Below the pieces are notes generated by a model. It had not been told where the DNA came from, made no database searches, and worked only from the letters and a program-made list of their open reading frames with translations. The translations under genes were made by a program, and so were the position numbers. Below, piece after piece: positions 1 to 12,763 of a stretch of 55,083 nt of DNA. How positions within the stretch are numbered: the stretch's first letter is position 1; every line of letters starts with the position of its first letter. Origin of the DNA: a virus (lineage: Duplodnaviria; Heunggongvirae; Uroviricota; Caudoviricetes); the IMG/VR virus record IMGVR_UViG_2923307698_000002, positions 1 through 55,083 of that record; one strand, 5' to 3'.

Positions 1-927
1 TCAGCTTTTCGCCAGAACGGTGACGGCCTTATCGAGTTTTTGCCATCCGCAATAGGTGATTGCCCTGAACGCTGTAGCGTCATTCTGGAAAAGGCTAACC
101 GTCCCTGATTCGGTTTTTATTACCGCCTCATCAGTTGGGGTTATAACTGTGGCTTCAACGTTAATAATCAGCTTTTGAGCGTCTATCAGCATCATGCGAT
201 CCGCCTGTTCGCTCACAATTACCGGTATTCTCAAAAGCTCTATCTGCCAGAACTCAGCATCAGTAAGCTGTAAGGCGTTTTCTACGGGCAAGATTAGCGA
301 CGACGTGGCAAGCGTGTTACCGTTCGCTATGTGCTTTTTGAAAAGCTCTATGAAGTTTTCGGCCTCATCAGCACCATTAAGCACGCCCTCAGGGGATACG
401 CCCGCCACCTCCTGGTCACTGGAAAGAAATTTTTTATCTATTTCTTTCACCGATTCCGATGTGATCAAGTCTCTGATCGCTGAATTGGTACAAGGGGTGC
501 TAAATTTGATTAGCTCGTTATTCAGCATCACAATAGCGCCAAGTTTGCACAGTTTTAGCGCACTTTCGTTTACTTCTCCCTCTTTGACAGGGATTTCTTC
601 GGCTTCTTTAAGCCATTTACTACCCTTGCCTGATATTGACTGCAATTTTGCGCCAAACGGAAGATTCAGCGCGCTGCTGATTAGCTTGCCTGGTACAGAC
701 TGCGAAAAAATATACTCGCCAAGCTCTCTTACTATCGGCTCTGCCACCAGCGACGGCATATTATCCGTAGTCATTCCGGCAACAATGGATTTTTCAAGAA
801 ATTTCGATACTGCCGGATCATTTTTTTTCGTCATTTCAATTGCGTCTGCATGGCTGAATTTACACGATGTAAGCACGCTGGCGGCGCGAACTGCCGACAC
901 GCCTTTCATGTTTTTAGAAATCATCAT
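1..927 (-). CDS. phage major capsid-like protein (HK97 fold family), satellite-encoded
   Basis: Complete 308-aa ORF; AGGAGG 6 nt upstream of ATG at 927; C-terminal region resembles HK97-family capsid C-terminus by eye; lies directly downstream of terS with no terL or portal between. Confidence 0.5.
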   Translation of the reverse strand: MMISKNMKGVSAVRAASVLTSCKFSHADAIEMTKKNDPAVSKFLEKSIVAGMTTDNMPSLVAEPIVRELGEYIFSQSVPGKLISSALNLPFGAKLQSISGKGSKWLKEAEEIPVKEGEVNESALKLCKLGAIVMLNNELIKFSTPCTNSAIRDLITSESVKEIDKKFLSSDQEVAGVSPEGVLNGADEAENFIELFKKHIANGNTLATSSLILPVENALQLTDAEFWQIELLRIPVIVSEQADRMMLIDAQKLIINVEATVITPTDEAVIKTESGTVSLFQNDATAFRAITYCGWQKLDKAVTVLAKS

Positions 928-1086
928 CTTCTTCCTCCTGGTAACATGGGGTTAGGGTTTCGTGAAAATATGGCATCAGAACAGCGGCAGCCTGTAACCG
1001 TATTTCTGTTGGCTGCTGCTTGTCGTTCATGATTTCCGTGAGTACATCAATAGGGTCTGTGATGTATTCGCTCATAGTTCGCTACC

Positions 1087-1575
1087 TCAGTGTTTTAAGC
1101 CAGTTGGTGGCTTAGGGATGGGGAACCGATTTGAGGAGACATTAGCGGCATTGAGTTTTTTAACCTCTTTTTTCCCAATGCTGCCGATCTTGCGGTGGGT
1201 GAACTGGGCCAGCTTAAACGCGGCATCTAAAGCCAGTTTTTGATCTGTGTCCATGTTGTCAATCAGTATCCTGCCCATTGCTTTGATGGGGTCGGGTAGG
1301 CCGTTATCCATCATCTCAATGGTGTTAATTGATGCCCGTTCCGGTGTAACTTTTTCGGTAACTTTCTTTGTAACTTTTTTCGGTTTTGTAACCTGAAAAG
1401 TTACATCAGAAGTTACAGCCTTAAGATACTTTTTCACCTCCGGATCATTGGATAGCTGCCAGCCTTTAACCCTTGCAGTCTTTTCGCTGTATCCCGCATG
1501 TATCGCGGCTTCCGTTGGATTTGTGCCCTTTGATAACGCATCAGCAAACCGCTTTTTTTTGGTCGTTAATGCCAT
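1087..1575 (-). CDS. terminase small subunit (P27-like family)
   Basis: Start placed at internal ATG 1575 (MALTTKKKRFADALSKG...) with GAGG RBS; the ORF track extends to 1713 but the upstream part lacks an RBS; N-terminal HTH-like motif typical of P27-type TerS. Confidence 0.75.
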   Translation of the reverse strand: MALTTKKKRFADALSKGTNPTEAAIHAGYSEKTARVKGWQLSNDPEVKKYLKAVTSDVTFQVTKPKKVTKKVTEKVTPERASINTIEMMDNGLPDPIKAMGRILIDNMDTDQKLALDAAFKLAQFTHRKIGSIGKKEVKKLNAANVSSNRFPIPKPPTGLKH

Positions 1576-1702
1576 GCAAAAACCTCGTTTTGAGGGGGTG
1601 TAACTTTTCGTGTAACTTTTTTGAAAAGCAAAATTTTCTATGAATGAGACGGGGGGCGGTGTCCAGGGCGATCGACTTTCCGGCCGGAACACTCCCCCCC
1701 TG

Positions 1703-1864
1703 TCATTGCTCACCGAGTAACGAGATCAGGCCTTCAACTTCATCACTCAGCTTGTTTATTCGTGTCTCAAGCTCTGCGATCTTTTCCATCAATGGCGCTA
1801 TGGTGTCTCTTGTTTCCTCGCCAATGGCTTTAATGATGCTTGCCTCGCGTTCTGTGATAGCCAT
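1703..1864 (-). CDS. small coiled-coil hypothetical protein (53 aa)
   Basis: ORF below the 60-aa track cutoff, found by hand translation (MAITEREASIIKAIGEE...); ATG lies 3 nt after the upstream gene stop (TAAACAATG), suggesting coupling. Confidence 0.3.
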   Translation of the reverse strand: MAITEREASIIKAIGEETRDTIAPLMEKIAELETRINKLSDEVEGLISLLGEQ

Positions 1865-1867
1865 TGT

Positions 1868-2062
1868 TTACGCCTCACTTGTTGCAATGCCCAGGCGTTC
1901 GCGTAACAGTACGCGCGCAAGATGCCCTATTGTTGGTGTTGCCGCCCTGCCGTAGATACCTGATTCATTCATCCGGCGCACAATATCGAACTGCAACTTT
2001 TTAAGCTCGTTAAGGATTTCATGATCAATCATCACGGTAGCGCTTTGCTTTATCTCTTCCAC
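1868..2062 (-). CDS. hypothetical protein (64 aa)
   Basis: GTG start at 2062 preceded by AGGAGA at 7 nt; sits between replication and packaging modules. Confidence 0.4.
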   Translation of the reverse strand: MEEIKQSATVMIDHEILNELKKLQFDIVRRMNESGIYGRAATPTIGHLARVLLRERLGIATSEA

Positions 2063-2149
2063 TTTGTTTTCTCCTGATACTTATCATTGCATAACCAGTA
2101 TTTTCGATAGATTATCATTAATTAACCATCTTTGAAGATATATGAGATC

Positions 2150-2175
2150 GAAAAAAAGCCGGATTGCTCCGGCTA
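2150..2175 (-). terminator. rho-independent terminator after rep operon
   Basis: Hairpin GCCGG-attgct-CCGGC followed by T-run on the minus strand, downstream of the 81-aa gene. Confidence 0.45.
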
Positions 2176-2192
2176 TGTGCTCACTTCTTCGG

Positions 2193-2438
2193 TTATTCTC
2201 CAGCGCTTTTAACGTTGATGGTTGTTACCTGTTCCGCTTCGGCAATCTCCCGTTCTGTCAGCGTGGCAAAGTTTGCCGCCGCGGTGGTCATGAATGCGCT
2301 TATCAGTTCGGGATGCTCCTTCGCGTATCCTTCCCCCGCGTGGCGGTCTATCGTTCTGATTGCCACCTTTAAGGAAAGCTCTGTCATGTCTAACGCTTTA
2401 TATTTTGGCGCTGTCTTATCTCTGGTTTTTCTGTTCAT
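2193..2438 (-). CDS. hypothetical protein (81 aa), last gene of rep operon
   Basis: ORF immediately downstream of the iteron array; start uncertain (ATG 2438 or internal ATG 2387). Confidence 0.4.
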   Translation of the reverse strand: MNRKTRDKTAPKYKALDMTELSLKVAIRTIDRHAGEGYAKEHPELISAFMTTAAANFATLTEREIAEAEQVTTINVKSAGE

Positions 2439-2640
2439 TCCCCACTACTCCCCACTTTTGCTCCCCACTTTTTGAAATTACCCACCGTCTCCCCACCTCT
2501 TTTTTTTGTGATTCTAACGTTATGTTTTTCAATATGTTTTTTACTCCCCACTTTTTTGGGTATATACAGGTGGGAAAGTGGGTAATTATGTTTCAATTTT
2601 GTTAAATTCCCCACTCCCCCCACTTTTACTCCCCACTTTT
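2439..2640. repeat. iteron array, putative satellite replication origin
   Basis: At least 7 copies of TCCCCACT(TTT) in direct orientation plus an inverted copy (aggtgggaaagtggg) and an AT-rich tract, immediately 3' of the rep stop codon. Confidence 0.6.
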
Positions 2641-4040
2641 TACAGCGGGCGCACGTCATCACCGTCAATAACGATTACGCCATCATTTTCCAGCTTGTAC
2701 AGCCAGCGCCGGAAGTGCTTCATCTCATACCCCAGCTTTTTCATATCGTCGCGGAGAAGGGCGATAGTGCACGCCTCCCCGTGTGCTGTTCGTGTTCTGA
2801 TGCACTGCCATAGCGCGGCGTGATTCTCCGTCTTGTTCCCTGCCTCCTCGATGCGCTCCAGTTCAACGGGAGGGCGCGGCTTATCCACCACCACCAGCGA
2901 CGTGATTAACTCCCCGTCAGCGTCGGTAAAAAGCTCCACCACGCGTAAGTCATATGCTGCTTCTTTGAGTTCCTCCGCGTCCTTCATTTTGGTACATGAG
3001 ATAACCAGCGCTTCGCTGCCTGCGTCCTCCCTGCGTATCCGGTATTCGGCGTCCAGTGATGCACGAAATGCACTGGAACCACGCGCCCCCTTTGTTTCAT
3101 CCTTGCCGGAATGGTGAACCACCAGCACCGTTGCCCCTGTGCGCCGTTTCAGTTCGTCACACCCACGGATAAACGCCCCCATATCACGGGAATCATTTTC
3201 ATCATTGCCGCCAAAGCAGCGCGCCAGCGTATCCAGAATAATCATTCGAACCGGTTTACCCGTTTCCCGTTCCACCTGACGGGCAGCGATAACCATTTCC
3301 TCAACATCAAGCGGGGCAGCCGGAAAGATGGGACGGTTTACCAGATACAGATTTTTCACCTGCTCACCGTGCACAACCTCCCAGGCTTTTACACGACGCG
3401 GAACGCCGATACCGCCTTCACCAACCACATAGAGAACAGCGCCATGCGCCACCCTGCGGCCTCCCCACTGGCGGCCCGTGGAAACGTGACACGCCCACGA
3501 ACCCGCAAGGAACGATTTATATGAACCGCTCGCCCCGTATATGCTGCACAGCGATACCGCCGGAATAATCCCCTTAACCACGTAATCAAGTTGTGTGTCG
3601 TATCCGGCAGATCCCACGCTCATTGGTAGCGTGGTTTTTCGCTGGTGGTGTTTTTCTTCCCCTGGCTTTTTCCCCCGCTCCCGTTCCAGATATTCGCGCC
3701 AGTTCTCCCGCTTCTGGCTGTGCATCCCTTCGGGGTAATAATTCGCATCAGTTACACCCGCCGCCGCCAGCTTGTGCGCAATGGCATTAATATTTGATGG
3801 CCTGATGTGGCCTGCCTTGTACAGCCGGACACAATAGCGCCCCTCGTCGATGATTCTCAGGTCTGCCAGTTCATCCAGTTGATCATCAGCCAGCACAACG
3901 GGAGGCACATTATCGCCAGCCAGTCGCCCGTCCTGTTCCTGCCACTGTTTCGCATGTGCCCAGGCATCACTACCCGCAAAAATAATGACTTCGGTCATCT
4001 TGTCGTAAGGCTGTTTTTTTAAGTTCGGTGCGCTTTTCAT
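2640..4040 (-). CDS. replication initiator/helicase, RecA-like P-loop ATPase
   Basis: 466 aa; Walker A YGASGSYKS and Walker B-like MIILD; ATGA overlap with upstream gene; iterons directly downstream. Confidence 0.75.
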   Translation of the reverse strand: MKSAPNLKKQPYDKMTEVIIFAGSDAWAHAKQWQEQDGRLAGDNVPPVVLADDQLDELADLRIIDEGRYCVRLYKAGHIRPSNINAIAHKLAAAGVTDANYYPEGMHSQKRENWREYLERERGKKPGEEKHHQRKTTLPMSVGSAGYDTQLDYVVKGIIPAVSLCSIYGASGSYKSFLAGSWACHVSTGRQWGGRRVAHGAVLYVVGEGGIGVPRRVKAWEVVHGEQVKNLYLVNRPIFPAAPLDVEEMVIAARQVERETGKPVRMIILDTLARCFGGNDENDSRDMGAFIRGCDELKRRTGATVLVVHHSGKDETKGARGSSAFRASLDAEYRIRREDAGSEALVISCTKMKDAEELKEAAYDLRVVELFTDADGELITSLVVVDKPRPPVELERIEEAGNKTENHAALWQCIRTRTAHGEACTIALLRDDMKKLGYEMKHFRRWLYKLENDGVIVIDGDDVRPL

Positions 4041-4336
4041 TTCTTGCCCCTGAATCCGTTAATCATGGTTTTCAGCTTCTGGATGTTTGCCCGTGCCCTG
4101 GCGTTGCTGGTGGGCACGTTATGCGGCGCGGTCTGTACCAGAGAAAAATCACGCCGGAACTGATAAACAGGCATCACGCAATCATATTCGTAACCTTCAC
4201 GGCGGTAAGTTACGCACCGTCCCGCCACGCCCTTAATCATTACCGTGCCGCCGTACTGGTCGCGGTAAATATCACCGCGCGTAAATTTAGGGTGAGTGTT
4301 GCCACTGGCAGTTAAGCCAGAATATTTAAGTTTCAT
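4037..4336 (-). CDS. hypothetical protein (99 aa)
   Basis: Stop overlaps rep start (ATGA); part of minus-strand operon. Confidence 0.4.
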   Translation of the reverse strand: MKLKYSGLTASGNTHPKFTRGDIYRDQYGGTVMIKGVAGRCVTYRREGYEYDCVMPVYQFRRDFSLVQTAPHNVPTSNARARANIQKLKTMINGFRGKK

Positions 4337-4341
4337 TATTT

Positions 4342-4575
4342 TTATTCTCCGGTGTGCTGTTCGTTATATCTGTCGTGCAATAGATCTATTTCTTGCAGTT
4401 CCATTATTACAGGCTCAAGAAGCGTTATTAATGCTGTGGCAATTCTTGATTTTTGTTTGTCGCGTTCATTGTCGCCAAGTGTTTCAAGCCATATGCGCAA
4501 TATTTCGTACATACCTTCAGCGTAAGCAAGGGCACTAAATGCGCGGTCTATTGTTTCGTGGTAAATATCACGCAT
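4342..4575 (-). CDS. hypothetical protein (77 aa)
   Basis: ORF in tight operon arrangement. Confidence 0.4.
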   Translation of the reverse strand: MRDIYHETIDRAFSALAYAEGMYEILRIWLETLGDNERDKQKSRIATALITLLEPVIMELQEIDLLHDRYNEQHTGE

Positions 4576-4576
4576 A

Positions 4577-4798
4577 TTAATCCCCGTCCGTTGTTTTTCT
4601 TAAAACAGCTTCTGTCACGAAATCAGCATAGTTAGCGGCAATATCAAGAATATTTAGCCCTGTATCTCTGTGCTCATCAGTGCAAAGAAAGAAAAAAGCC
4701 ACCCGCATAATTTCAGATATTGACGAAAGCGCATCAGCCGCATCATCAGGAACGCCGGAAAATTCTTGTTTCAGGGAATTAAAACGATCATCACGCAT
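4577..4798 (-). CDS. hypothetical protein (73 aa)
   Basis: ATG at 4798 is 2 nt downstream of a G8 homopolymer on the coding strand. Confidence 0.35.
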   Translation of the reverse strand: MRDDRFNSLKQEFSGVPDDAADALSSISEIMRVAFFFLCTDEHRDTGLNILDIAANYADFVTEAVLRKTTDGD

Positions 4799-5013
4799 AA
4801 CCCCCCCCCATTTTCACAATCAGCAACAAGAATATTTTTAGCGTCATTCAGCGACCGCGTTGCGATGTATCGGATACATTCCAGGGCGAACTGTGTCCGG
4901 TCTTTCTGTTCTTCTCCCTGCGCAAGCTCTGCAGTGCATTCAATATCGATAAGCGCGTGCATCAGCGTAGTGAGCGCGGCGGCTGCTGCGTCCGGTGTGG
5001 TTTTATTGCACAT
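4771..5013 (-). CDS. hypothetical protein (80 aa)
   Basis: Start placed at ATG 5013 with AGGAGG at 6-7 nt; 3' end overlaps the next gene across the G8 tract. Confidence 0.35.
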   Translation of the reverse strand: MCNKTTPDAAAAALTTLMHALIDIECTAELAQGEEQKDRTQFALECIRYIATRSLNDAKNILVADCENGGGLCVMIVLIP

Positions 5014-5203
5014 GGCACACCTCCTGACGAATACGGGCGGCGAATACAGCAACACAACCGGACGGGCAACGGCTACGCGCTTCGCGTTCCGTCCAGGCGG
5101 TTACGTGGATGATTTGAGATTCTCCGGCACTCAGTGCCAGAAAACGCCACACAAAGGCCGTTTGTGTGTGTACAAGGTGTGGTATATGATTTACGGCAAC
5201 CAT
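5003..5203 (-). CDS. hypothetical protein (66 aa), first gene of leftward operon
   Basis: ATG 5203 with AGGAG at 5 nt. Confidence 0.3.
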   Translation of the reverse strand: MVAVNHIPHLVHTQTAFVWRFLALSAGESQIIHVTAWTEREARSRCPSGCVAVFAARIRQEVCHVQ

Positions 5204-5387
5204 AACGGCTCCTAGTTTACGTTGTTGGTTAGACGCCCCGTATGTGTTCCCGCACTGCGGGGTGTTGTTATTTGGTGCATCGCACCATCTGTTTTTAACC
5301 TATCAGCAAGTGAATCGCACTTCAAGCCTTTTTCTCTGAATTTTTTTTGTGTATACTGAATCGCACCAACTTAGAGAGGATTCTGTA
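5204..5387. promoter_or_regulatory. divergent promoter/operator region of the satellite
   Basis: Three copies of TG(A/C)ATCGCAC at 5279-5285, 5314-5320 and 5360-5366; palindrome CCGCAcTGCGG near 5251; TATACT -10-like element; between divergent operons. Confidence 0.45.
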
Positions 5388-5567
5388 ATGGCAACAGGTT
5401 CAACAAATAATAAGTCGCAACAGTTAAATGCCAGATTCCCGCATGATGTTGTTGCAGACTTAGAAAAAAATTTAGATGAAGGTGAAAGCAAAGCGCAATT
5501 TATAGTTACTGCCGTTAAAGGCGAAATCAAACGCCGCCAGCGCCGCAAGGCCAAAGAGCAGGAGTAA
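5388..5567 (+). CDS. ribbon-helix-helix (CopG-like) regulator
   Basis: ATG 5388 after AGAGAGGA; N-terminal beta-strand/helix pattern (QQLNARFPHDVVADLEK...AQFIVTAVKGEI) typical of RHH proteins; basic C-tail. Confidence 0.5.
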   Translation: MATGSTNNKSQQLNARFPHDVVADLEKNLDEGESKAQFIVTAVKGEIKRRQRRKAKEQE

Positions 5568-5609
5568 CCATCACCAGCGCCGTGGTGTGAGGTACTACGG
5601 CGCATTGCT

Positions 5610-5798
5610 ATGCAGGACAACACAATGACCGATAAAGAATTGACCAAAACATTATCACCGGCACGGAAAAGACGGCGCAGAAAGATAGAGCATGAATCAG
5701 AAAGATTCGCACCATGTGCTTTTGCCCTTGAGCAATTCCTTAAAGAGTACAGGGAAAAGCGCTCATTGCAGGTATGGCAACGAACTGAACCAGACTGA
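5610..5798 (+). CDS. hypothetical basic protein (62 aa)
   Basis: ORF downstream of the RHH gene; start may be the internal ATG at 5625. Confidence 0.3.
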   Translation: MQDNTMTDKELTKTLSPARKRRRRKIEHESERFAPCAFALEQFLKEYREKRSLQVWQRTEPD

Positions 5799-5885
5799 TT
5801 GCATTGCCCACCAGCCTGATAGCGGCTATCATCCCCGTGCTTATGTTTGGGATCACATACACATAAGGCGCAGCGGGTTAATTGT

Positions 5886-5912
5886 TCAGAAAGGCGGCTC
5901 CATATCGGGGCC
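5886..5912 (+). terminator. rho-independent terminator
   Basis: GC hairpin (gcggctcc...ggggccgc) followed by T6; lies between convergent genes. Confidence 0.4.
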
Positions 5913-5946
5913 GCTTTTTTCGTGTTTGTCATATCTGTGATACCCG

Positions 5947-6153
5947 TTAAGCAGCCGTTCCGCGTGCTTCCTCTTCGCGTTCTTTCTGCCAGGACAACAC
6001 ATCATCCTCATACCATCCGCGACGGCGTAAACCAACGCGAAAACCCTGCGGAAATTCTCCGGCGTTGATCATGCTTTGCAGCGTGCTGTCTGCCTTGATG
6101 TGGATAATTTTTTTTACTTCCTGGCGAAAGATAATTTTTCTGATTGCTTCCAT
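5947..6153 (-). CDS. alpA: AlpA-family transcriptional regulator/excision activator
   Basis: 68 aa; pattern IIRQ-EV...L...AGEFP...G.RR.GW.EDDV..W matches AlpA/Vis-type MerR-like HTH as recalled. Confidence 0.7.
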   Translation of the reverse strand: MEAIRKIIFRQEVKKIIHIKADSTLQSMINAGEFPQGFRVGLRRRGWYEDDVLSWQKEREEEARGTAA

Positions 6154-6282
6154 CGTGATTTACCTTGTGAATCCGGTGTATTCCGGTGACAAATACGGTA
6201 AATCATCGGATATGGGTAAAAACAGTTCCCACCGTTTTTAAACGGTATACACCGTTTTTTATATTGATGATTTGAAATGGAA

Positions 6283-6310
6283 TTATAAAAAAAGCGGCAT
6301 TTCTGCCGCT
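6283..6310 (-). terminator. rho-independent terminator
   Basis: 7-bp stem AGCGGCA/TGCCGCT with T-run on the minus strand, downstream of the 83-aa gene. Confidence 0.45.
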
Positions 6311-6320
6311 TCCAGGATTG

Positions 6321-6572
6321 TTACCGCCATTTTTTGGGCCTGCCTCCGATCTTCATAGATGCCGGACGTACGACCTTATCAATACTTACCGCCAGATTTC
6401 TGGAAGCGCCACGGGATACCAGAAAATCTACTACCTGTTTTTTTGATGGGGCCGTCGTTCTGTCCTCCGGATCGTAGGTTGACCAAAATTCATGCTGAAC
6501 CATCAGGGCCAGTTGCAGCCCGTCGCAATTGCATCTGATATTTTTTTGCATCTTAACGGTTTCATGTTTCAC
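6321..6572 (-). CDS. hypothetical protein (83 aa)
   Basis: ORF between alpA and int; basic C-terminus. Confidence 0.4.
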   Translation of the reverse strand: MKHETVKMQKNIRCNCDGLQLALMVQHEFWSTYDPEDRTTAPSKKQVVDFLVSRGASRNLAVSIDKVVRPASMKIGGRPKKWR

Positions 6573-6649
6573 GGCCTTGTCGTTAAATTTGATGCAATTA
6601 TACGACGGTTTTACATGGTTTTCGTAGTTTTTACTGGTTTTCTGTACAG

Positions 6650-7891
6650 CTACACGGCTCGGATACCCCTTTTACCACTGGCGAGGGTTACGCCCGTCGC
6701 CGCAGCCTCGACAAATTCGCCCCACCAGCGCATCAGCACGATGCGTTTTTCTATGTAGTTGCTCCGGTTGTATGCCCGTCTAACTTCGTTGGTGTCGACG
6801 TGGGCAAGTGCCGCCTCTATTACGTCCGGCTCGAATCCTTCCTCGTTCGCTGCTGTGCTGAATATGGCGCGTAATCCATGAGACACCAGCACGCCAGCGA
6901 ATCCCATACGCCGCAATGCTGCGTTAGCTGTCTGGCTGTTCATCGGCTGCTGTGGGTCTTTCAGACTTGGGAAAACGTAATTGCGGTGGTGGCTGATTGG
7001 TTTCATGGCCTCCAGCACCGCCATAGCCTGACCGGAAAGCGGGATAACGTGATCCCTGCGCATCTTCATGCGTCCGGCAGGTATCGTCCATTGCTTCGCG
7101 TCCAGGTTGATTTCATCCCACCGCGTTGATGACGCTTCGGCGGGACGGGTTACGGTCAGTAACTGCCATTCAATCAGTAATCTGGTCTGCCGTTCTGTTG
7201 CCGATACTGATAAAGCCTGCATAAGCTCGGGCAGCTGTTCGGGGCGGATTGTTGGCATATGTTTTTTTACAGGTGAGGGAAACGCCTTACGCACATTCAT
7301 AGCCGGATTGGCATCAATCAGCCCACTGTTGGCGGCGTAATCCATTACCTCATTAACGCGCTGTAAAACCCGCTTGAGTGTTTCCAGGTTGCCGCGCTCC
7401 TTGATGGGGGTAAGCACTTCAACGAACCTTCGGGCGGTGAGGGTATCTATTGGCGTGTTGCCGATGAACGGGAATACATATTTATCCAGCGAACGCCAGA
7501 TGTCTTTAATCGTGTTGGGGGCCAGATTCTGGCTGATTTTCACCTGGTACCATGCCGCCGCCACATTTTCGAACGTGTTCCCTTGTCTTCGGGCCTCTGT
7601 CTCTCTTTTTTGCCTCTCGTGGTCCTGTGGGTCAGTTCCGGCACTGATTAACGTCCTGTACTCGCTACGGCGTTTTCTGGCATCAGCCAGGGAAACATCT
7701 TCAAGCGATCCAAAACTCAGCAATATTCTTTTTTTGTCCGATGGTCGGTAGTAGGAAAATCTCCAGAGTTTTGATCCAGACGGTTTGACCAGGAGAAAAA
7801 GCCCTCCGCCGTCCTGCAGGGTGTACTCCTTTTGCGCTGGTCTGGCTGCTTTGATCTGCACTGTGGTTAATGGGTGTGTTTTTCTCGCCAT
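6650..7891 (-). CDS. int: tyrosine integrase, P4-like
   Basis: ATG at 7891 (MARKTHPLT...); N-terminal arm-binding-like domain and C-terminal catalytic domain with conserved R...H.LR...Y pattern; adjacent to tRNA fragment. Confidence 0.9.
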   Translation of the reverse strand: MARKTHPLTTVQIKAARPAQKEYTLQDGGGLFLLVKPSGSKLWRFSYYRPSDKKRILLSFGSLEDVSLADARKRRSEYRTLISAGTDPQDHERQKRETEARRQGNTFENVAAAWYQVKISQNLAPNTIKDIWRSLDKYVFPFIGNTPIDTLTARRFVEVLTPIKERGNLETLKRVLQRVNEVMDYAANSGLIDANPAMNVRKAFPSPVKKHMPTIRPEQLPELMQALSVSATERQTRLLIEWQLLTVTRPAEASSTRWDEINLDAKQWTIPAGRMKMRRDHVIPLSGQAMAVLEAMKPISHHRNYVFPSLKDPQQPMNSQTANAALRRMGFAGVLVSHGLRAIFSTAANEEGFEPDVIEAALAHVDTNEVRRAYNRSNYIEKRIVLMRWWGEFVEAAATGVTLASGKRGIRAV

Positions 7892-7925
7892 ATGTCTATG
7901 ATTCCACACGAAAAAACAGGGTTTT

Positions 7926-7975
7926 AGTTATACGGCTTTAGTTATACGCCAGCCCGTATAACTAAACGTATAACT
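7926..7975. promoter_or_regulatory. putative integrase arm-type binding sites
   Basis: Four copies of a 9-bp motif: AGTTATACG at 7926-7934 and 7940-7948, inverted CGTATAACT at 7955-7963 and 7967-7975, between int start and the att core. Confidence 0.4.
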
Positions 7976-8109
7976 AAAAAATCCGGCTGATAGCTTATAA
8001 ATCCGGTGATGTTCGGTGACTAAAAAACATAAAAAAACCCGCCAATCAAGTGATTAGCGGGTTATCCCTGTCTTATCCGGTGCTTTCCGGTGATATCCGG
8101 TGGGCGATT

Positions 8110-8155
8110 TGGTCGGCACGAGAGGATTTGAACCTCCGACCCCCGACACCCCATG
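8110..8155 (-). other. attachment-site core: 3' 46 nt of tRNA-Pro(GGG)-like gene (partial tRNA, no 5' half)
   Basis: Minus strand reads CATGGGGTGTCGGGGGTCGGAGGTTCAAATCCTCTCGTGCCGACCA: anticodon loop with GGG, variable loop, T-arm GGAGG/TTCAAAT/CCTCT, acceptor and CCA; upstream sequence cannot form acceptor or D arms. Confidence 0.65.
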
Positions 8156-8370
8156 TCACCGCGCCTGAAACGCTGGAGACCGCGCCATTGCTGGGCTGGC
8201 AGGGTGTTTCACTGTGTGCGCAAACAGTGCATAATTCGCAAAATTCACGCTATATACATCAATGAGTTAAGAGAGATTTTTCCCCACTCCTAAATGGTCA
8301 GTTTTTGGAGCATTACTATATTAATAGGTTCCGTCTATAGCACTTTTTGATTTGCTTCTAATATGCTTTT

Positions 8371-8397
8371 CTGTGGATAAGATTTAGTTATCCACAG
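8371..8397. promoter_or_regulatory. inverted pair of DnaA-box-like sequences
   Basis: CTGTGGATAA-gatttag-TTATCCACAG; TTATCCACA matches the DnaA box consensus; about 200 bp upstream of the 255-aa gene. Confidence 0.3.
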
Positions 8398-8593
8398 ACT
8401 TATCTCCTAAGTTTCCGAGCGGCTACATGTTTTTTGTTGATTGTTTTATGTTTGGCGTAAAGTCAACAATTACTTCGCTTTTTGACCATTTTAGCCCATT
8501 GGAAATTACGATCATCTTCATGTAACCTTCTAAAACTTACTAAGATTGCAGAAGTTAAAGCAACATAGCTCGTAGTTTCTTAAAGGTGATTTA

Positions 8594-9361
8594 ATGCCAC
8601 AGCCGGCGCTAAAAGCGAACGAAATCAGCAGTGAATTAATCGATATTCTTGCGGCTCGGAATACGATATCCGAAATGCAATATTTTCGTTATATCAGAGA
8701 TATAGAAAAGTTGCGCGACAGCGCATCTGAGGACTATCTCAAAGCGTTGGCTAATGGTGCTTTTGGGCGTAAAGATACTGCAGTTGCATTCTTTGAAGAA
8801 GCATTGAAGCATAACAACCTGATCATTGCTCAAAATTATGTAGTTTATCTCAACGATTACGGCAGCTTCCGTGAAGTTGAACAAGTGGTAAATCGATTAG
8901 TTGAACGTTATAACTCCCCTACGATGCTGTCCCATGCATGGGAAGCTAACTTGTTCTTGGGGCGTATTGACAAAGCGCTCTACTATGCTGAGAGATTGAT
9001 AAGTATGGTAGATGAAAAGGAGGCTGAATTGGTTAAGCACCTCGCAGCCACAGCACTGGCCCAATCCACGACCTTCAAAAGTGCAACTGGAATTACTGAT
9101 GAAGAACTACAGGATATTGCAAACCGCATAGTGGATATCATGGCTGACCATAAAGTTAGTCCTGTTGCTATGTCTTTCTGCTCTATCCCTGAAGAGCGTA
9201 CGTCATCATATGTCATGGCAGTTAATACTGAAGATTCTGATGTTCTCTCTGATATGAACTTGGATATAGCATTTTCTCTTGCAGAAAATGAAAGTTTGAT
9301 TGGAAAACCCTTCAGCGTATGGTTTGAAGGGCGTTTGGAGGAACCTGCGCGTGCCAGTTAA
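8594..9361 (+). CDS. hypothetical protein (255 aa), first gene of two-gene cargo operon
   Basis: ATG 8594 after AAGGTGA; AT-rich codon usage unlike the flanking phage DNA; no family recognised. Confidence 0.55.
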   Translation: MPQPALKANEISSELIDILAARNTISEMQYFRYIRDIEKLRDSASEDYLKALANGAFGRKDTAVAFFEEALKHNNLIIAQNYVVYLNDYGSFREVEQVVNRLVERYNSPTMLSHAWEANLFLGRIDKALYYAERLISMVDEKEAELVKHLAATALAQSTTFKSATGITDEELQDIANRIVDIMADHKVSPVAMSFCSIPEERTSSYVMAVNTEDSDVLSDMNLDIAFSLAENESLIGKPFSVWFEGRLEEPARAS

Positions 9362-9734
9362 TAGTTCCGATTTTATCGCTTTCGCAAAAGATTGTGAAAA
9401 GCGTAACGACGAAATTGGTTACAGAAACGCTGTCGCACGTGCGTATTATGGTGCTTATCACCACGTACTTCCGTGTTTGACCATGGGGCCGAAAGAAAGT
9501 CACCAAGGCCTCATTGACTATCTTGTTAACGATGCTTGGAAGGGTAACGAACCTTTTGAAAAAAGAGACTTAATTGGTTTGGGGTATGCTCTTCAATCGC
9601 TTAAGGATCAGAGAATAGTTTGTGATTACAGACTTAACGACACTATTACGCCAACCCAATCAAGCACCGCGATTAAGACTGCAGAGAAATTAATCCAGCG
9701 TTGCGCTAATATGACCAAGTCTAAAGCGTCCTAA
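9351..9734 (+). CDS. hypothetical protein (127 aa), possible HEPN-like fold
   Basis: Probable GTG start at 9351 after GGAGG, overlapping the upstream stop; contains R-x6-H (RAYYGAYH); assignment speculative. Confidence 0.45.
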   Translation: MPVNSSDFIAFAKDCEKRNDEIGYRNAVARAYYGAYHHVLPCLTMGPKESHQGLIDYLVNDAWKGNEPFEKRDLIGLGYALQSLKDQRIVCDYRLNDTITPTQSSTAIKTAEKLIQRCANMTKSKAS

Positions 9735-9740
9735 TCCCCA

Positions 9741-9770
9741 AAATTGGCCTCATTTGAGGCCAATTTTATT
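9741..9770 (+). terminator. rho-independent terminator
   Basis: Hairpin TTGGCCTC-attt-GAGGCCAA followed by TTTTATT. Confidence 0.5.
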
Positions 9771-9774
9771 ATGC

Positions 9775-10140
9775 ATTGTATTTAATTTCACCGTGCGGAA
9801 GCATTACCCAATCATATGGTTCCGCGTATAAATTTTCGTTGATTTCGCGTCGCTGTGGGCTATGAGCCCTTGTGGTCTACTCCCTGTTTATCAAACAAAA
9901 TGCAGCTAGTGCGCGTATTTTGTGGAATGTGGGGGCGCAGCTCCATCGTCAAATTATTACACAAGCCTAACGAATCACGGGGCAATGAAAAGTATGGCTA
10001 AGATAGGCAGGTGCGGATACCTCTTTACTGCGTTTGTTATTACGCTCGGTATACGGTGAACGATATACGGGCAGGCAACGTTATCGCGACTGTTATCAAT
10101 AATACGTTTCAGTTTGTCCTCGAACTACATCACAACCGGC
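9775..10140 (-). pseudogene. integrase 3'-end remnant (frameshifted fragment)
   Basis: Nucleotide and translated similarity to the 3' third of the intact int at 11312-11700 (e.g. ...QGLIAHSDAKSTKIYT vs ...QGRMAHSDAKSTKIYT); 1-nt indel and stops; no 5' part. Confidence 0.6.
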
Positions 10141-10217
10141 TTGAAAACTAATTACTGGATTTTGTGCCTCCATAATCATATGATTTAAAATGTTATTTTA
10201 TAAAAAAGGAGTTGTAT

Positions 10218-11174
10218 ATGACCAATTTGTATAAGTTTATGGGAGCGGATATAATTGATAAATTGATGATGGATGAAACACATATAGGAATAAAATTCTC
10301 TCATTTACATGAATATAATGATCCCTATGAGTTTTTCCTTACTATTGATTTTAATCGCGGTTCTGATGAGTTAGCATTTTACAATGAAATGATTGGCATG
10401 GTTACAAAACAACCAGCAACTTGTTTTACGAAAAGCCCTGTGATACCACCTATGTGGGCACATTATGCAGGTAATTCTTCTGGTTTTGTAATAGAGATTA
10501 ATGAGGAGAAGTTTAAAAAGTATTTGGATGAAATCGGCTTCCAGGATCATAGTTCAATAGCAGATGTTGAATATAAAGATTCTCCAGATACAGGTATTGA
10601 AGACATTCTGGCGAGAGCATTTCATATCTGTAAACCTCGTTATATCTACTGGCTACAATCCTGTATAATGACAGCCGCATATTTGACAAAACAAACTTGC
10701 TGGAGTTATGAGCAGGAACGTCGCGTAATAATTAATGAGAAAGCACTTACTAAACTGAATGACAATCTTATGCTCCTTCCGGTACCGATTAATTGTATAA
10801 CTGGAGTTATAGTTGGGCACAAATCAAATGATTTATTAAAGCAGAAAATTCAATCTTTAGCTAAAAAGGCTAAATGTAGATATTTCGAAATGGTAATAGG
10901 AAAAACAACAACTACACCATTTCTTTTATCTCAAAATCTCAAATCACACCAATTTATTAATGGCAATATAATACCTGCATCAAGGCAATGTAAAAAATGT
11001 TATGAGCCTTTAAACATGGAAAATAAAGTTTGTGGCTGGTGTGGAATTACTAATCATGATGTGAAAATGGCAGAGTACCGTAATTCATTTCGAATGATAG
11101 CCAACTATGGTGGGCTGGATAAATATATATCATCCATGAATAAGATTACTGAAGAGTATAATAAGGGTAAATAA
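10218..11174 (+). CDS. DUF2971-like protein with C-terminal zinc ribbon
   Basis: ATG 10218 after AAAGGAG; motifs LYKF...FS...NDPYEF, MWAHYA, WSYEQERR recalled as DUF2971 signature; C-x2-C-x13-C-x2-C at the C-terminus; AT-rich. Confidence 0.55.
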   Translation: MTNLYKFMGADIIDKLMMDETHIGIKFSHLHEYNDPYEFFLTIDFNRGSDELAFYNEMIGMVTKQPATCFTKSPVIPPMWAHYAGNSSGFVIEINEEKFKKYLDEIGFQDHSSIADVEYKDSPDTGIEDILARAFHICKPRYIYWLQSCIMTAAYLTKQTCWSYEQERRVIINEKALTKLNDNLMLLPVPINCITGVIVGHKSNDLLKQKIQSLAKKAKCRYFEMVIGKTTTTPFLLSQNLKSHQFINGNIIPASRQCKKCYEPLNMENKVCGWCGITNHDVKMAEYRNSFRMIANYGGLDKYISSMNKITEEYNKGK

Positions 11175-11311
11175 ATTTTATTAATAAATATTGCTTTCTG
11201 GACAAGGGAGAAGTTATGGTAAATGGGCATAGAACTGCCTTTTAAATTAAGCTTTACTCTATGCCTTAGCAACCGTTATTGTCAGTCAAAATAAAGTGGA
11301 GAATTTAATAA

Positions 11312-12496
11312 CTAACCGGTTTTAATTTCTCCATGAGGGACAACAATCCAATCTATATGATTTTTAGTATAAATTTTAGTAGATTTCGCATCGCTATGTG
11401 CCATTCGTCCCTGCGGATCAATCCCTTGTTTATCAAATAGGTGAGCTGCCAAAGCTCTTATTTCATGGAATGTAGGTCTTTGTTCCATTGCTAGATGATT
11501 GCATAGTCCGAGTTTGTCTCGCACGGAAGAGAATGACCGACTCAAATAATCTGGTGCAACTTGAGTTGGGTGCGAAACCTCTTTACTGCGTTTAACATGC
11601 CGTTCTGGGATTCTATGAACGACAAAGGGACTGGCCACATTGTCACGGCTATTGTCAATTATCCGTTTCAATTCTTCACCAATTGGTATTGCAACATGTG
11701 ATGCCTCCTTTTTTTGTACTTTTTGCCTATGGATGTATAGTGTACCATATATGCCATTTTGTGGTTGTTCGAACCAAACACATCCACATAAACCGTCTTT
11801 AGGTTCGCGAATTGAGTAACGGATTCGCGATACTTCGAGTCGTGCATGTGTAGTCTGCAATGCTAGGTCCATTGCTGTTCTTAACCATGGTGCAGCGGCC
11901 TGCCTGATAGCTATAAAATGCTCGAGTGACAGGCGCCGTCTTTTCTTCTCATCAGTCCTACGCATTTTTTTTCTGATGGCCGGGTTATCCTGCATTAGTG
12001 ATTCATCGACCGCATAAGAGAACAACTTTTTAAGAAAGCTGACCTTTCTGTTCTGCACATTTGCGGATGCGCTGGCATGATATTTGTTGATGTAGGCATT
12101 AACGTGTTCAAGTTCGATATCGCATGCCGGAACATTTACGAAAAACGCTTTTACGCGTAGAGCGTCATTTTTCCAGTCATCTAAGGTACTCTGGGAAGGT
12201 CGTTCGTCTTCGATAATTCTGGCCATTATGTGATCGACATGTTCAGCAAATGGTTTTGCTTCTCCGGTGACCCCGCCAGATTCTCTAATAAGATTATCCA
12301 CTGATGGGTATAATTCTGATCGCATCCTCAGGTTGTACTCTCTGGCGATTGCAACGGCTATTGCCCGATCCTTACCTATATTTTTCTTTTTTCCGGTAAT
12401 AAGTGTGAATTTATAAACACCTCGATCTTTATCAAAAACCAGATAATCAGGAAGATGTCTGTATTCTTTTTTACGTGGCCTTGCCGCCATGGTCAT
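11312..12496 (-). CDS. int: tyrosine integrase, lambda-type
   Basis: 394 aa; N-terminal arm-binding region and C-terminal catalytic domain; ATGA overlap with xis. Confidence 0.9.
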   Translation of the reverse strand: MTMAARPRKKEYRHLPDYLVFDKDRGVYKFTLITGKKKNIGKDRAIAVAIAREYNLRMRSELYPSVDNLIRESGGVTGEAKPFAEHVDHIMARIIEDERPSQSTLDDWKNDALRVKAFFVNVPACDIELEHVNAYINKYHASASANVQNRKVSFLKKLFSYAVDESLMQDNPAIRKKMRRTDEKKRRRLSLEHFIAIRQAAAPWLRTAMDLALQTTHARLEVSRIRYSIREPKDGLCGCVWFEQPQNGIYGTLYIHRQKVQKKEASHVAIPIGEELKRIIDNSRDNVASPFVVHRIPERHVKRSKEVSHPTQVAPDYLSRSFSSVRDKLGLCNHLAMEQRPTFHEIRALAAHLFDKQGIDPQGRMAHSDAKSTKIYTKNHIDWIVVPHGEIKTG

Positions 12497-12702
12497 CCCT
12501 CATTTATTAACTTGCGAACAGCTTGACTAACCATTGAGTCGACTCCCCATTTTTCTGTTTCGCAGACAAAAACAGAACCGTCCACGATACGCCCCATGAG
12601 CAGACCGTTCTCGACCCAGCGTTTTATCGTTCGGTTGTCAGGAATTGAGCCATTAGAGAATTCACGGCGTCCCCATTGGCTCGCTTTCATTAGTTTTGCC
12701 AT
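12493..12702 (-). CDS. xis: excisionase (Xis-like)
   Basis: Start placed at ATG 12702 with GGAGAAA RBS (69 aa); coupled upstream of int. Confidence 0.6.
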   Translation of the reverse strand: MAKLMKASQWGRREFSNGSIPDNRTIKRWVENGLLMGRIVDGSVFVCETEKWGVDSMVSQAVRKLINEG

Positions 12703-12763
12703 GGCTGTTTCTCCACTTAACCCGCTGCACACGGGCAGTAATATCAAATTTCAGTCCTGATAA

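What the first reader, a model, noticed from the sequence alone, without database searches (positions are those of the whole stretch)
9775..10140. Frameshifted integrase 3' fragment: scar of an earlier element
The segment aligns by eye at both nucleotide and translated level with the 3' third of the lambdoid int about 1.5 kb away, but is about one third diverged, has a 1-nt indel and lacks the 5' two thirds. It marks a decayed earlier integration, and the two homologous int 3' ends bracket the DUF2971-like gene, which could promote recombination.
Basis: seen in the sequence. Interest (0 to 1): 0.4.

Follow-up and report, generated by a model that had tools for sequence, protein, structure and literature searches.

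The report
Dead integrase stub inside prophage cargo slot
The segment is a real but dead leftover of a second phage integrase gene, a recombination scar showing that two accessory-gene modules from two related E. coli phages were stacked next to one working integrase; this is ordinary phage mosaicism, and public annotation already flags the fragment as a pseudogene.

Summary
Window 9769-10138 (- strand) is homologous to the last third of the intact lambda-type integrase at 11312-12496 (blastn E 1e-12 and 4e-11, about 65-73% identity). It is more decayed than reported: 7 indel events, including a 15-nt deletion, plus an in-frame stop.

The window is the E. coli proL (tRNA-Pro GGG) locus. The fragment lies inside one att-delimited lambdoid prophage, in a variable cargo slot between int and the phage arm and att core (8108-8287).

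Related proviruses show both parental layouts:
- arm-hypA-hypB-hairpin-full-length int
- arm-DUF2971-int
- an empty slot

The window is a composite: arm-hypAB-int stub | DUF2971-int, joined by one illegitimate junction at about 10138-10141.

The stub has two alleles with the same breakpoint but independent lesions, and its divergence is roughly neutral. It occurs in 52 of 5426 complete E. coli genomes, always together with DUF2971 and int. No genome shows recombination between the two int 3' ends.

The "scar" reading is right. "Earlier chromosomal integration" is only one possible route, and "promotes recombination" is unsupported. RefSeq already annotates it as a frameshifted partial recombinase.

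One unexplained side observation: independent stubs of this integrase family in other genera tend to start near the same codons (about 262-272).

The parts
8108..8155 (-). Displaced 48-nt 3' part of tRNA-Pro(GGG) proL: the att core copy at the int-proximal end of the lambdoid prophage. It also serves as the junction with the satellite on its left.
   Evidence: E. coli K-12 and thousands of other genomes match only these 48 nt, annotated tRNA-Pro. There is a single copy in the window. The full proL next to yejM lies at the other prophage end in the syntenic strain CCUG 73778.
8156..8287 (.). Phage-derived att arm (P'-arm equivalent), conserved next to the core in related proL prophages. It forms the left, fixed flank of the cargo slot.
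   Evidence: 92% identical to E3, 85% to L105 where it follows int directly, and 79% to L190. Similarity to relatives ends at about 8287. The function as Int arm-binding sites is inferred by analogy with lambda attP.
8594..9361 (+). hypA, cargo gene of module X (255 aa, weak TPR signal below the Pfam cut-offs).
   Evidence: ORF; Pfam TPR_15/TPR_14/TPR-S below cut-off; no PADLOC or NCBIfam hit. 93% identical in L110/L112/L114, where it lies next to hypB and a full-length int.
9351..9734 (+). hypB, cargo gene of module X (127 aa, no family hit); overlaps hypA by 11 nt.
   Evidence: RefSeq CDS WP_001145023.1; no Pfam, PADLOC or NCBIfam hit; 94% identical in L110/L112/L114.
9740..9767 (.). Perfect 12-13 bp hairpin with U-tracts on both strands: a bidirectional terminator shared by hypB and the former int_X.
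   Evidence: RNA fold -18.1 and -18.3 kcal/mol, z -4.8 and -4.0, with 0 of 200 shuffles folding as well. It is conserved (88%) downstream of full-length int in L110/L112/L114.
9769..10138 (-). The finding: a dead 3' third (equivalent to codons ~267-394) of a lambda-family integrase gene, int_X. It has 7 indels and an in-frame stop, and lacks the arm-binding and core-binding domains, the first catalytic Arg and the hairpin Lys.
   Evidence: PGAP pseudogene in 52 genomes. A second allele in T309.Ta3 has the same 5' breakpoint but different lesions.
10139..10217 (+). Illegitimate junction (about 10138-10141) followed by the upstream region of DUF2971, derived from module Y.
   Evidence: BLAST-detected colinearity with L190 begins at window 10203. 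By eye, a diverged resemblance to the sequence just inside L190's arm extends back to about 10139. It is 97% identical between the two alleles. It contains no att core or arm remnant.
10218..11174 (+). DUF2971 gene, cargo of module Y. It is a predicted ADP-ribosyltransferase-fold protein matching the PADLOC candidate single-gene defence system PDC-S31.
   Evidence: Pfam PF11185 E 1.8e-9; PADLOC PDC-S31 E 4.9e-22. A DUF2971 protein (Aristaios) is an experimentally shown abortive-infection system in Lactococcus (PMC11381338). The family is predicted to have a DarT-like ART fold (PMC12522546).
11312..12496 (-). Intact integrase (394 aa) of the resident lambdoid prophage, the paralogue the stub aligns with. 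It is itself mosaic relative to close relatives.
   Evidence: ORF; Arm-DNA-bind_1 hit; lambda Int structures at E 1.7e-12. Against the E3 and LH09-a ints, the 5' part is 97-100% identical and the 3' ~390 nt only 68-85%.
12493..12702 (-). Small gene upstream of int, a putative excisionase (inferred from position and a weak HTH signal).
   Evidence: RefSeq CDS WP_001096409.1; weak DUF4817 HTH hit. It is conserved with int in all relatives.

Best explanation
Window 9769-10138 is a non-functional remnant of the integrase gene (int_X) of a second phage. That phage belongs to the same proL-targeting lambdoid family as the resident prophage. In this family the space between the int stop codon and the phage att arm is a variable cargo slot. 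One ancestor carried arm-hypA-hypB-terminator-int_X, and another carried arm-DUF2971-terminator-int_Y. A single illegitimate join fused int_X at about nucleotide 797 to a point 10-20 nt inside the arm of Y. This removed the 5' two thirds of int_X and Y's own arm and core. The product is one prophage with a stacked slot: core-arm-hypAB-int_X stub-DUF2971-int_Y. The join could have been a ~40-kb deletion in a tandem X-Y double lysogen at proL, or homology-anchored illegitimate recombination between two phage or prophage genomes. The stub now does nothing. It lacks a promoter-proximal part, two domains and two catalytic residues, it is frameshifted, and it drifts neutrally as a passenger of the prophage. 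Shown: the homology, the decay, the position inside the att boundaries, the existence of both parental layouts, and the shared breakpoint of the two alleles. Inferred: the order and route of events, and the anti-phage role of the cargo.
For: 1. Homology and decay. 2. Locus identity: a 48-nt proL 3' copy at 8108-8155, present once in the window, and the full proL plus yejM beyond the tail-fibre end in syntenic CCUG 73778. 3. The slot has fixed flanks and variable content. E3 has two other genes, LH09-a one gene, strain 3-72 an AbiLi-like ATPase, a partner gene and DUF4760, and L105 is empty, with int stop, 29 nt, then arm and core. 4. Parent X layout: L110/L112/L114 are colinear with window 10114..8108. 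They have a full-length int, the same EIKYNA tail, the same hairpin, and hypAB at 93-94% identity. 5. Parent Y layout: L190 has the arm, about 70 nt, a DUF2971 homologue, int and xis, colinear with window 10203..12736. 6. No att core or arm remnant lies between the stub and int. 7. The stub, DUF2971 and int always co-occur in 52 of 5426 genomes, in strains whose names indicate both ST131 and ST167. 8. The T309.Ta3 allele has the same breakpoint, but has only one 7-nt deletion where the window allele has 7 indels. Stub divergence is 11% against about 5.5-9.5% synonymous divergence in the flanking genes (my estimate from the substitution counts). 9. The lambda Int alignment places the start of the stub after the beta-hairpin Lys, so the first catalytic Arg and the Lys are missing.
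Against: No tandem X-Y lysogen and no excised circular form of the composite was found, so the route is unproven. The int 3' thirds of the sampled parent-X relatives are only 68-75% identical to the stub although their hypAB is 93-94% identical. The true int_X lineage is therefore not sampled, and further recombination has occurred. The stub's 5' limit coincides with a position where other independent stubs of this family also start. A purely random illegitimate join does not predict this. Substitutions are asymmetric between the two alleles, 24 derived in the window allele against 8 in T309, and this is unexplained.
Confidence: 0.85

Rival explanations
1. The stub is the remnant of an older, separate prophage or island that integrated at proL and decayed in place. 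The present prophage would be a later, independent integration lying entirely to the right of the stub.
For: Remnants of this exact type do form. Strain J2 lost almost the whole prophage through an IS1-mediated deletion, leaving core-arm-hypAB-partial stub at proL. Klebsiella (L006) and Pseudoalteromonas (L016) carry orphan 'int stub-cargo-att' islands at tRNA-Pro. proL is a multi-occupancy site, with a satellite sitting in tandem in this window.
Against: A later integration would leave an att core and arm between the remnant and the new int. None is present in 10139-11311. The Y-derived sequence starts just inside where Y's arm should be, so at least one further deletion is needed. All 52 carriers have the identical composite.
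Confidence: 0.1
2. The stub is an intragenomic duplication of the resident int's own 3' end, for example created when DUF2971 was inserted, and has since diverged.
For: The two copies are direct repeats bracketing one gene. This resembles the displaced 3' gene ends seen when elements insert into genes.
Against: The copies are only 65% identical, while the two alleles of the surrounding genes differ by 2-4%. The stub's tail (EIKYNA) and hairpin differ from the resident int's (EIKTG) but match the full-length ints of other phages that sit next to hypAB. No target-site or att-like repeats lie at the junction.
Confidence: 0.02
3. The stub is retained because it has a function, for example as a C-terminal mini-Int that interferes with incoming integrases, or as a cis element for DUF2971 or hypB expression.
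For: Several stubs elsewhere still have open frames of 119-126 codons (ESY002 type, Klebsiella, L018, Pseudoalteromonas). Stub starts cluster near one position. The hairpin at its 3' end is a functional-looking terminator for hypB.
Against: In this window the frame is broken 7 times and contains a stop, and the T309 allele is broken differently. Divergence between the alleles is at or above the neutral level. Open frames elsewhere are explained by recency: each stub's nearest relative is a full-length int of a related host, and the Shewanella stub is 97.5% identical at the DNA level. No promoter signal above shuffle expectation was found.
Confidence: 0.03

Closest known systems
Integrase pseudogene remnants in tRNA-linked islands and cryptic or tandem prophages (general knowledge of E. 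coli cryptic prophages; annotated by NCBI PGAP as 'recombinase, frameshifted, incomplete')
   Same: A truncated, frameshifted tyrosine-integrase 3' end near a tRNA att repeat, drifting neutrally. The same kind of orphan stub is seen in strain J2, Klebsiella L006 and Pseudoalteromonas L016.
   Different: Here the stub is not at the edge of a decayed island. It lies inside an apparently complete ~47-kb prophage, between two cargo modules and 1.2 kb from a live paralogue.
Anti-phage or 'moron' cargo hotspots at fixed positions of temperate phage and satellite genomes (P2/P4 hotspots, Rousset et al. 2022; recalled from my own knowledge, not read here)
   Same: The flanks are fixed (int stop codon and att arm) and the content is variable or absent in relatives. 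Contents hit the defence models PDC-S31, AbiLi and SMODS+SLATT.
   Different: The position differs (between int and the att arm of proL lambdoid phages). The scar shows accretion of two modules by an illegitimate join rather than clean replacement. No defence phenotype was tested.
Displaced 3' gene ends created when an element integrates into a gene and supplies a replacement end (icd' next to e14 and phage 21 in E. coli; from my own knowledge)
   Same: Two diverged direct copies of a gene's 3' end bracket inserted DNA. One copy is live and one is dead.
   Different: There is no site-specific junction. No att-like repeat or tRNA-like sequence lies at the breakpoint, and the inserted DNA is not an integrative element with its own ends.
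Homology-facilitated illegitimate recombination and the modular mosaicism of lambdoid phages (Hendrix/Hatfull mosaic model; de Vries and Wackernagel 2002; from my own knowledge)
   Same: One novel joint sits next to long homologous stretches. The resident int is itself mosaic relative to E3 and LH09-a.
   Different: The mechanism is inferred only. Family-wide nucleotide diversity is flat along int, so there is no general homology boundary at the breakpoint.

Membership tests
Tyrosine recombinase, lambda Int family (catalytic domain Pfam PF00589) | Sequence homology to the catalytic domain | tested here: met
   blastn to the neighbouring int gives E 1e-12 and 4e-11. The frame-corrected translation is 85% identical to the neighbouring int's C-terminus and 64-81% identical to the other family members aligned. 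The neighbouring int hits lambda Int structures at E 1.7e-12. Pfam alone is below cut-off (18.9 bits against 27.1), as it also is for the intact int.
Tyrosine recombinase, lambda Int family (catalytic domain Pfam PF00589) | Complete catalytic set Arg-Lys-His-Arg-His/Trp-Tyr | tested here: not met
   The stub starts at the HVAIPIG-equivalent position, downstream of the first Arg and of the beta-hairpin Lys region in the lambda Int alignment. Only HxxR, His and Tyr remain, and only in a corrected reading.
Tyrosine recombinase, lambda Int family (catalytic domain Pfam PF00589) | Uninterrupted reading frame with the N-terminal arm-binding and core-binding domains | tested here: not met
   Seven indels and an in-frame TAG. 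Nothing homologous to Int residues 1-260 lies upstream.
Neutral gene remnant (pseudogene) | Independent disabling lesions in different alleles, and divergence at or above the synonymous rate of neighbouring genes | tested here: met
   The window allele has 7 indels and the T309 allele a different 7-nt deletion and stops, with the same breakpoint. Divergence is 11.1% in the stub, 1.8-3.6% in the flanking genes overall, and about 5.5-9.5% at their synonymous sites (my estimate from the substitution counts).
Lambdoid prophage integrated in the 3' end of tRNA-Pro (proL) | Direct repeats of the tRNA 3' part at both ends, with the stub lying between them | tested here: inconclusive
   The left repeat is at 8108-8155 in the window. 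The right end with the full proL lies beyond the window, and is seen only in the syntenic CCUG 73778 and in J2.
Prophage cargo or defence hotspot | Conserved flanks with different or no genes in related elements | tested here: met
   Six different contents were found between int and the arm: window, E3, LH09-a, 3-72, L190 and the empty L105.
Prophage cargo or defence hotspot | The cargo confers protection against phages | not testable with these tools
   Only model hits are available: PDC-S31 for DUF2971 and AbiLi for the strain 3-72 ATPase. Experimental support exists for a distant DUF2971 protein (PMC11381338). hypA and hypB have no hits.
Displaced 3' gene end from site-specific insertion into a gene (icd'/e14 type) | An att-type repeat or recombinase target at the junction | tested here: not met
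   No core or arm similarity lies near 10139-10217. Junction flanks of this and other stubs show no significant similarity to proL (local alignment p > 0.09 against shuffles).

The most novel reading that the evidence does not exclude
The integrase genes of this proL/tRNA-targeting family may have a preferred truncation point. I examined 11 stubs, counting the window and T309 alleles as one event. Six or seven of them start within about 30 nt of each other (int nt ~783-815, codons ~262-272, at the conserved His-Val just 3' of the A-rich tract that encodes the beta-hairpin Lys). They are: window/T309, the E. coli ESY002 type, Klebsiella, an unassigned phage contig, Xenorhabdus and Shewanella. 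Each stub's nearest relative is a full-length int of a related host. If these events are independent, there is either a mutational hotspot (for example Int acting on a pseudo-core inside its own gene) or selection against longer, catalytically competent fragments. Stubs such as the one in this window would then be products of a specific process rather than random decay.
Probability: 0.2. Interest if true: 0.45.

Novelty: already known. Interest (0 to 1): 0.2.

Why it matters
On its own it matters little. It is a dead gene fragment that standard annotation already flags. Its value is as a dated joint. It shows that in proL lambdoid prophages of E. coli the int-att interval is a cargo slot, and that this slot can grow by stacking modules from different phages rather than only by swapping them. 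Here one module is a candidate ADP-ribosyltransferase-type defence gene and the other is an uncharacterised two-gene pair. For people mining defence islands, int stubs next to att arms are a cheap marker of such stacked or orphaned cargo. The repeated breakpoint across genera, if it survives a larger independent sample, would be a small open question about how integrase genes break.

Tried and rejected
1. Chance similarity: rejected.

2. A family of stand-alone short 'mini-integrases'. All 53 hits of the protein search were 76-217 aa. Inspection showed contig-end truncations, ORF calls inside frameshifted full-length genes (P0011) and true stubs. Each stub's nearest relative is a full-length int. 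Not one conserved short family.

3. The junction was made by site-specific recombination with the tRNA. Flanks upstream of eight stubs were aligned to proL on both strands against 200 shuffles. Nothing was significant.

4. The breakpoint sits at a general homology boundary, with a conserved 5' part and a diverged 3' third. This holds for the window int against E3 and LH09-a. Diversity across 69 unique full-length genes is flat, so it is not general.

5. Strains with a deletion or duplication between the two int 3' ends: none in 5426 genomes. The only deletion variant is IS1-mediated and non-homologous.

6. Sequenced phage isolates carrying the stub: none. The only hit was a 76% partial match to phage Flotzy int.

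7. IMG/VR contigs with the exact junction: four, all in prophage order. None shows an excised (attP) permutation.

8. Promoter and terminator consensus scans of 8150-11400 were not above shuffle expectation. Only the 9740-9767 hairpin stands out by folding energy.

9. ARAGORN finds no tRNA in the window, because only 48 nt of proL are present. PGAP's 'tRNA-Pro' call in E3 is this partial copy plus phage sequence.

Full report
OBSERVATION

A blastn of window 9735-10210 against the whole window gives two significant non-self hits. Both fall in the 3' third of the integrase gene at 11312-12496: 11321-11437 (73.5%, E 1e-12) and 11569-11673 (73.6%, E 4e-11). A global alignment is colinear over the whole fragment, at 65% identity.

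Reading the - strand with frame corrections gives IGDKLKRIIDNSRDNVA...ERNNKRSKEVSHPTQVAPDYLS...RPTFHEIRALAA...AHSDAKSTKIYTRNHIDWVMVPHGEIKYNA*, about 85% identical to the int C-terminus.

Three corrections are needed:
- The remnant runs from its stop codon (9769-9771) to about 10138.
- It differs from int by seven indel events (six of 1 nt and one 15-nt deletion) and has an in-frame TAG. It does not have a single 1-nt indel.
- Upstream of the breakpoint there are only 77 nt before the DUF2971 start codon, so the 5' two thirds are truly absent.

WHERE THIS IS

The window is Escherichia coli chromosome at the proL (tRNA-Pro GGG) locus, between yejO and yejM.

Window 8108-8155 is the 3' 48 nt of proL on the - strand. 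E. coli K-12 and thousands of other genomes match only these 48 nt of a 7.1-kb query. It is the only copy in the window.

To its left (window 1-8107) lies a separate element with a P4-type integrase, an AAA_25 replication protein, a small terminase and a capsid protein. This is a capsid-forming, PICI-like satellite.

To its right lies a lambdoid prophage with CPS-53-like early genes (yfdP/Q/R/S), which runs beyond the window. In the syntenic strain CCUG 73778 it ends at a full proL next to yejM.

The stub therefore lies between the two att repeats of one prophage. No second core or arm copy exists between the stub and the live int.

THE INT-ATT INTERVAL IS A CARGO SLOT

Relatives keep the same int-xis and the same ~130-nt phage arm next to the core (window 8156-8287), but differ in between:

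| Relative | Content between int and arm |
|---|---|
| Strain E3 | two unrelated genes |
| LH09-a | one gene |
| Strain 3-72 | AbiLi-like ATPase, a partner gene, a transposase remnant and a DUF4760 gene |
| IMG/VR provirus L105 | nothing; the arm starts 29 nt after the int stop |
| Window | hypA (weak TPR), hypB, a strong bidirectional hairpin (9740-9767, z -4.8 and -4.0), the stub, then the DUF2971 gene |

The DUF2971 protein matches the PADLOC candidate defence model PDC-S31 (E 4.9e-22). Published work describes a DUF2971 protein (Aristaios) as an abortive-infection system (PMC11381338). Another paper describes the family as DarT-like ADP-ribosyltransferases (PMC12522546).

BOTH PARENTAL LAYOUTS EXIST

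Three IMG/VR proviruses (L110, L112, L114) are colinear with window 10114..8108. They carry a full-length int ending in the same EIKYNA tail, the same hairpin, then hypB, hypA, the arm and the core. Their hypAB is 93-94% identical to the window's. This is 'parent X'.

Provirus L190 has the arm (matching window 8221-8286), about 70 nt, a DUF2971 homologue, int and xis, colinear with window 10203..12736 at 78%. This is 'parent Y'. By eye, the diverged upstream region of L190's DUF2971 gene can be followed in the window back to about 10139.

The window is therefore core-arm-hypAB-hairpin-int_X(3' third) | DUF2971-int_Y. A single novel joint connects int_X at about nucleotide 797 to a point 10-20 nt inside Y's arm.

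A tandem X-Y double lysogen followed by one ~40-kb deletion would give this. So would an illegitimate join anchored by homology elsewhere between two phage genomes. I could not separate the two routes.

THE STUB IS A PASSENGER AND DECAYS NEUTRALLY

The stub occurs in 52 of 5426 complete E. coli genomes, always at proL and always with DUF2971 and the same int. Strain names indicate unrelated backgrounds, including O25b:H4-ST131 and ST167. PGAP already labels it 'recombinase; frameshifted; incomplete; missing N-terminus'.

One genome (T309.Ta3) carries a second allele of the whole slot. The breakpoint and the 77 nt beyond it are the same (97% identical), but this stub has only one 7-nt deletion and different stops.

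Divergence between the two alleles:
- stub: 11.1% plus 26 gap columns
- flanking coding genes: 1.8-3.6%
- synonymous sites of those genes: about 5.5-9.5% (my estimate from the substitution counts)
- non-coding arm region: 6-7%

This fits one ancestral truncation followed by independent neutral decay.

By alignment with lambda Int, the stub begins after the beta-hairpin that carries the catalytic Lys. It lacks the first Arg, that Lys and both DNA-binding N-terminal domains. It could not act even if it were repaired.

DOES IT PROMOTE RECOMBINATION?

The two int 3' ends are direct repeats, but they are 65% identical and their longest exact run is 17 nt. From general knowledge, this is below what RecA-dependent recombination uses efficiently in E. 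coli.

Among all carriers the interval 8156-11700 is colinear. The exceptions are an IS1 insertion (GZ04-0086), an IS903B insertion (T309.Ta3), a contig break, and strain J2. In J2 an IS1-associated deletion runs from inside the stub (window 10063) to the far end of the prophage, leaving core-arm-hypAB-partial stub. None of these is a repeat-mediated product.

SIDE RESULTS

The live int is mosaic. Against E3 and LH09-a, its 5' 600-800 nt are 97-100% identical, while the 3' ~390 nt fall to 68-85%. This is not general, because diversity across 69 unique full-length genes is flat.

A second, independent stub type exists in about 30 E. coli genomes at another locus (ESY002). There the order is tail-fibre genes, a vestigial proL-type attP (core with 2 mismatches, plus arm), SMODS+SLATT genes and the stub, which is phage-circle order. 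Such stubs can therefore be carried inside phage genomes after an integration-module change.

UNEXPLAINED

I mapped stub starts in an unselected sample (80 loci, one genome per species, found with C-terminal motifs) plus the cases above. Most copies are full length.

The stubs start at about these codons:

| Stub | Start (codon) |
|---|---|
| Shewanella | 262 |
| Klebsiella | 267 |
| Window/T309 | ~267 |
| ESY002 | 268 |
| Xenorhabdus | 270 |
| Unassigned phage contig | 271 |
| Other stubs | 285, 294, 302, 304 and 135 |

Each stub's nearest relative is a full-length int of a related host, so this is not one ancient fragment. The independence of the four enterobacterial cases is uncertain.

I tested and rejected a tRNA-derived junction and a general homology boundary. 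I have no mechanism for the clustering.

VERDICT

This is a real, ordinary and already-annotated integrase pseudogene. 'Earlier integration' is one possible route. 'Promotes recombination' is unsupported.

The informative part is the context: a cargo slot between int and the att arm, in which two modules were stacked.

Noticed in passing
window 1-8107 (P4-type int at 6650-7909 -, AAA_25 protein 2640-4040 -, TerS 1087-1713 -, capsid-family protein 1-927 -): A phage satellite with its own P4-type integrase, small terminase and capsid gene (capsid-forming PICI-like). It sits in tandem with the lambdoid prophage and shares the 48-nt proL fragment as its junction. No complete E. coli genome in the collection has this satellite and the composite prophage together: no record covers 80% or more of 5500-12600.
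   Followed up: partly
window 11312-12496: The live integrase is mosaic relative to its closest relatives. Against E3 and LH09-a, the 5' part is 97-100% identical and the last ~390 nt only 68-85%, mostly through synonymous differences. Family-wide diversity is flat, so this reflects specific recombination events rather than a general module boundary.
   Followed up: yes
int codons ~262-272 (window equivalent ~11680-11710; stub start ~10138); loci L004, L006, L018, L074, L088: Independent 3' stubs of this integrase family in E. coli, Klebsiella, Xenorhabdus, Shewanella and an unassigned phage contig start within about 30 nt of one another. The position is just 3' of the A-rich tract encoding the beta-hairpin Lys. 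A full-length Serratia copy (L028) is frameshifted in that A-run. No mechanism was found.
   Followed up: partly
window 9769-10138 versus L005 6617-6984: Of 38 substitutions between the two stub alleles, 24 are derived in the window allele and 8 in the T309 allele (6 undecided). Six of the seven indels are specific to the window allele. Possible causes are faster decay in one lineage or partial gene conversion of the other. Not resolved.
   Followed up: partly
L004 (E. coli ESY002, about 3.70 Mb) 4067-6391: A vestigial proL-type attP (core with 2 mismatches, plus arm) lies directly after tail-fibre genes. It is followed by SMODS and SLATT genes and an open-frame int stub, then a different integrase. 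This looks like an integration-module replacement that kept the old attP and cargo.
   Followed up: partly
L015 (E. coli J2) 7001-10519: An IS1-associated deletion removed the prophage from inside the stub (window coordinate 10063) to the dinI-like gene. It leaves an orphan core-arm-hypAB-stub island next to an intact proL, a present-day example of how such remnants form.
   Followed up: yes
window 8594-9734: hypA (255 aa, sub-threshold TPR/TPR-sensor signals) and hypB (127 aa, no hits) overlap by 11 nt and travel as a conserved pair in the slot (93-97% identical across alleles and proviruses). This is a candidate two-gene accessory or defence module of unknown function.
   Followed up: partly
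L016 (Pseudoalteromonas ardens) 2269-6778: A 4.4-kb islet lies between a full tRNA-Pro(GGG) and a 33-nt repeat of its 3' end. It holds only an int stub, an Mrr-like nuclease gene and two small genes. The same 'stub-cargo-att' remnant architecture therefore occurs in a distant genus.
   Followed up: partly
L003 (E. coli E3) 8003-8080: PGAP annotates a full 'tRNA-Pro' here. The sequence is the 48-nt proL 3' copy joined to phage arm sequence, and ARAGORN does not call it. This is probably an annotation artefact at an att site.
   Followed up: partly
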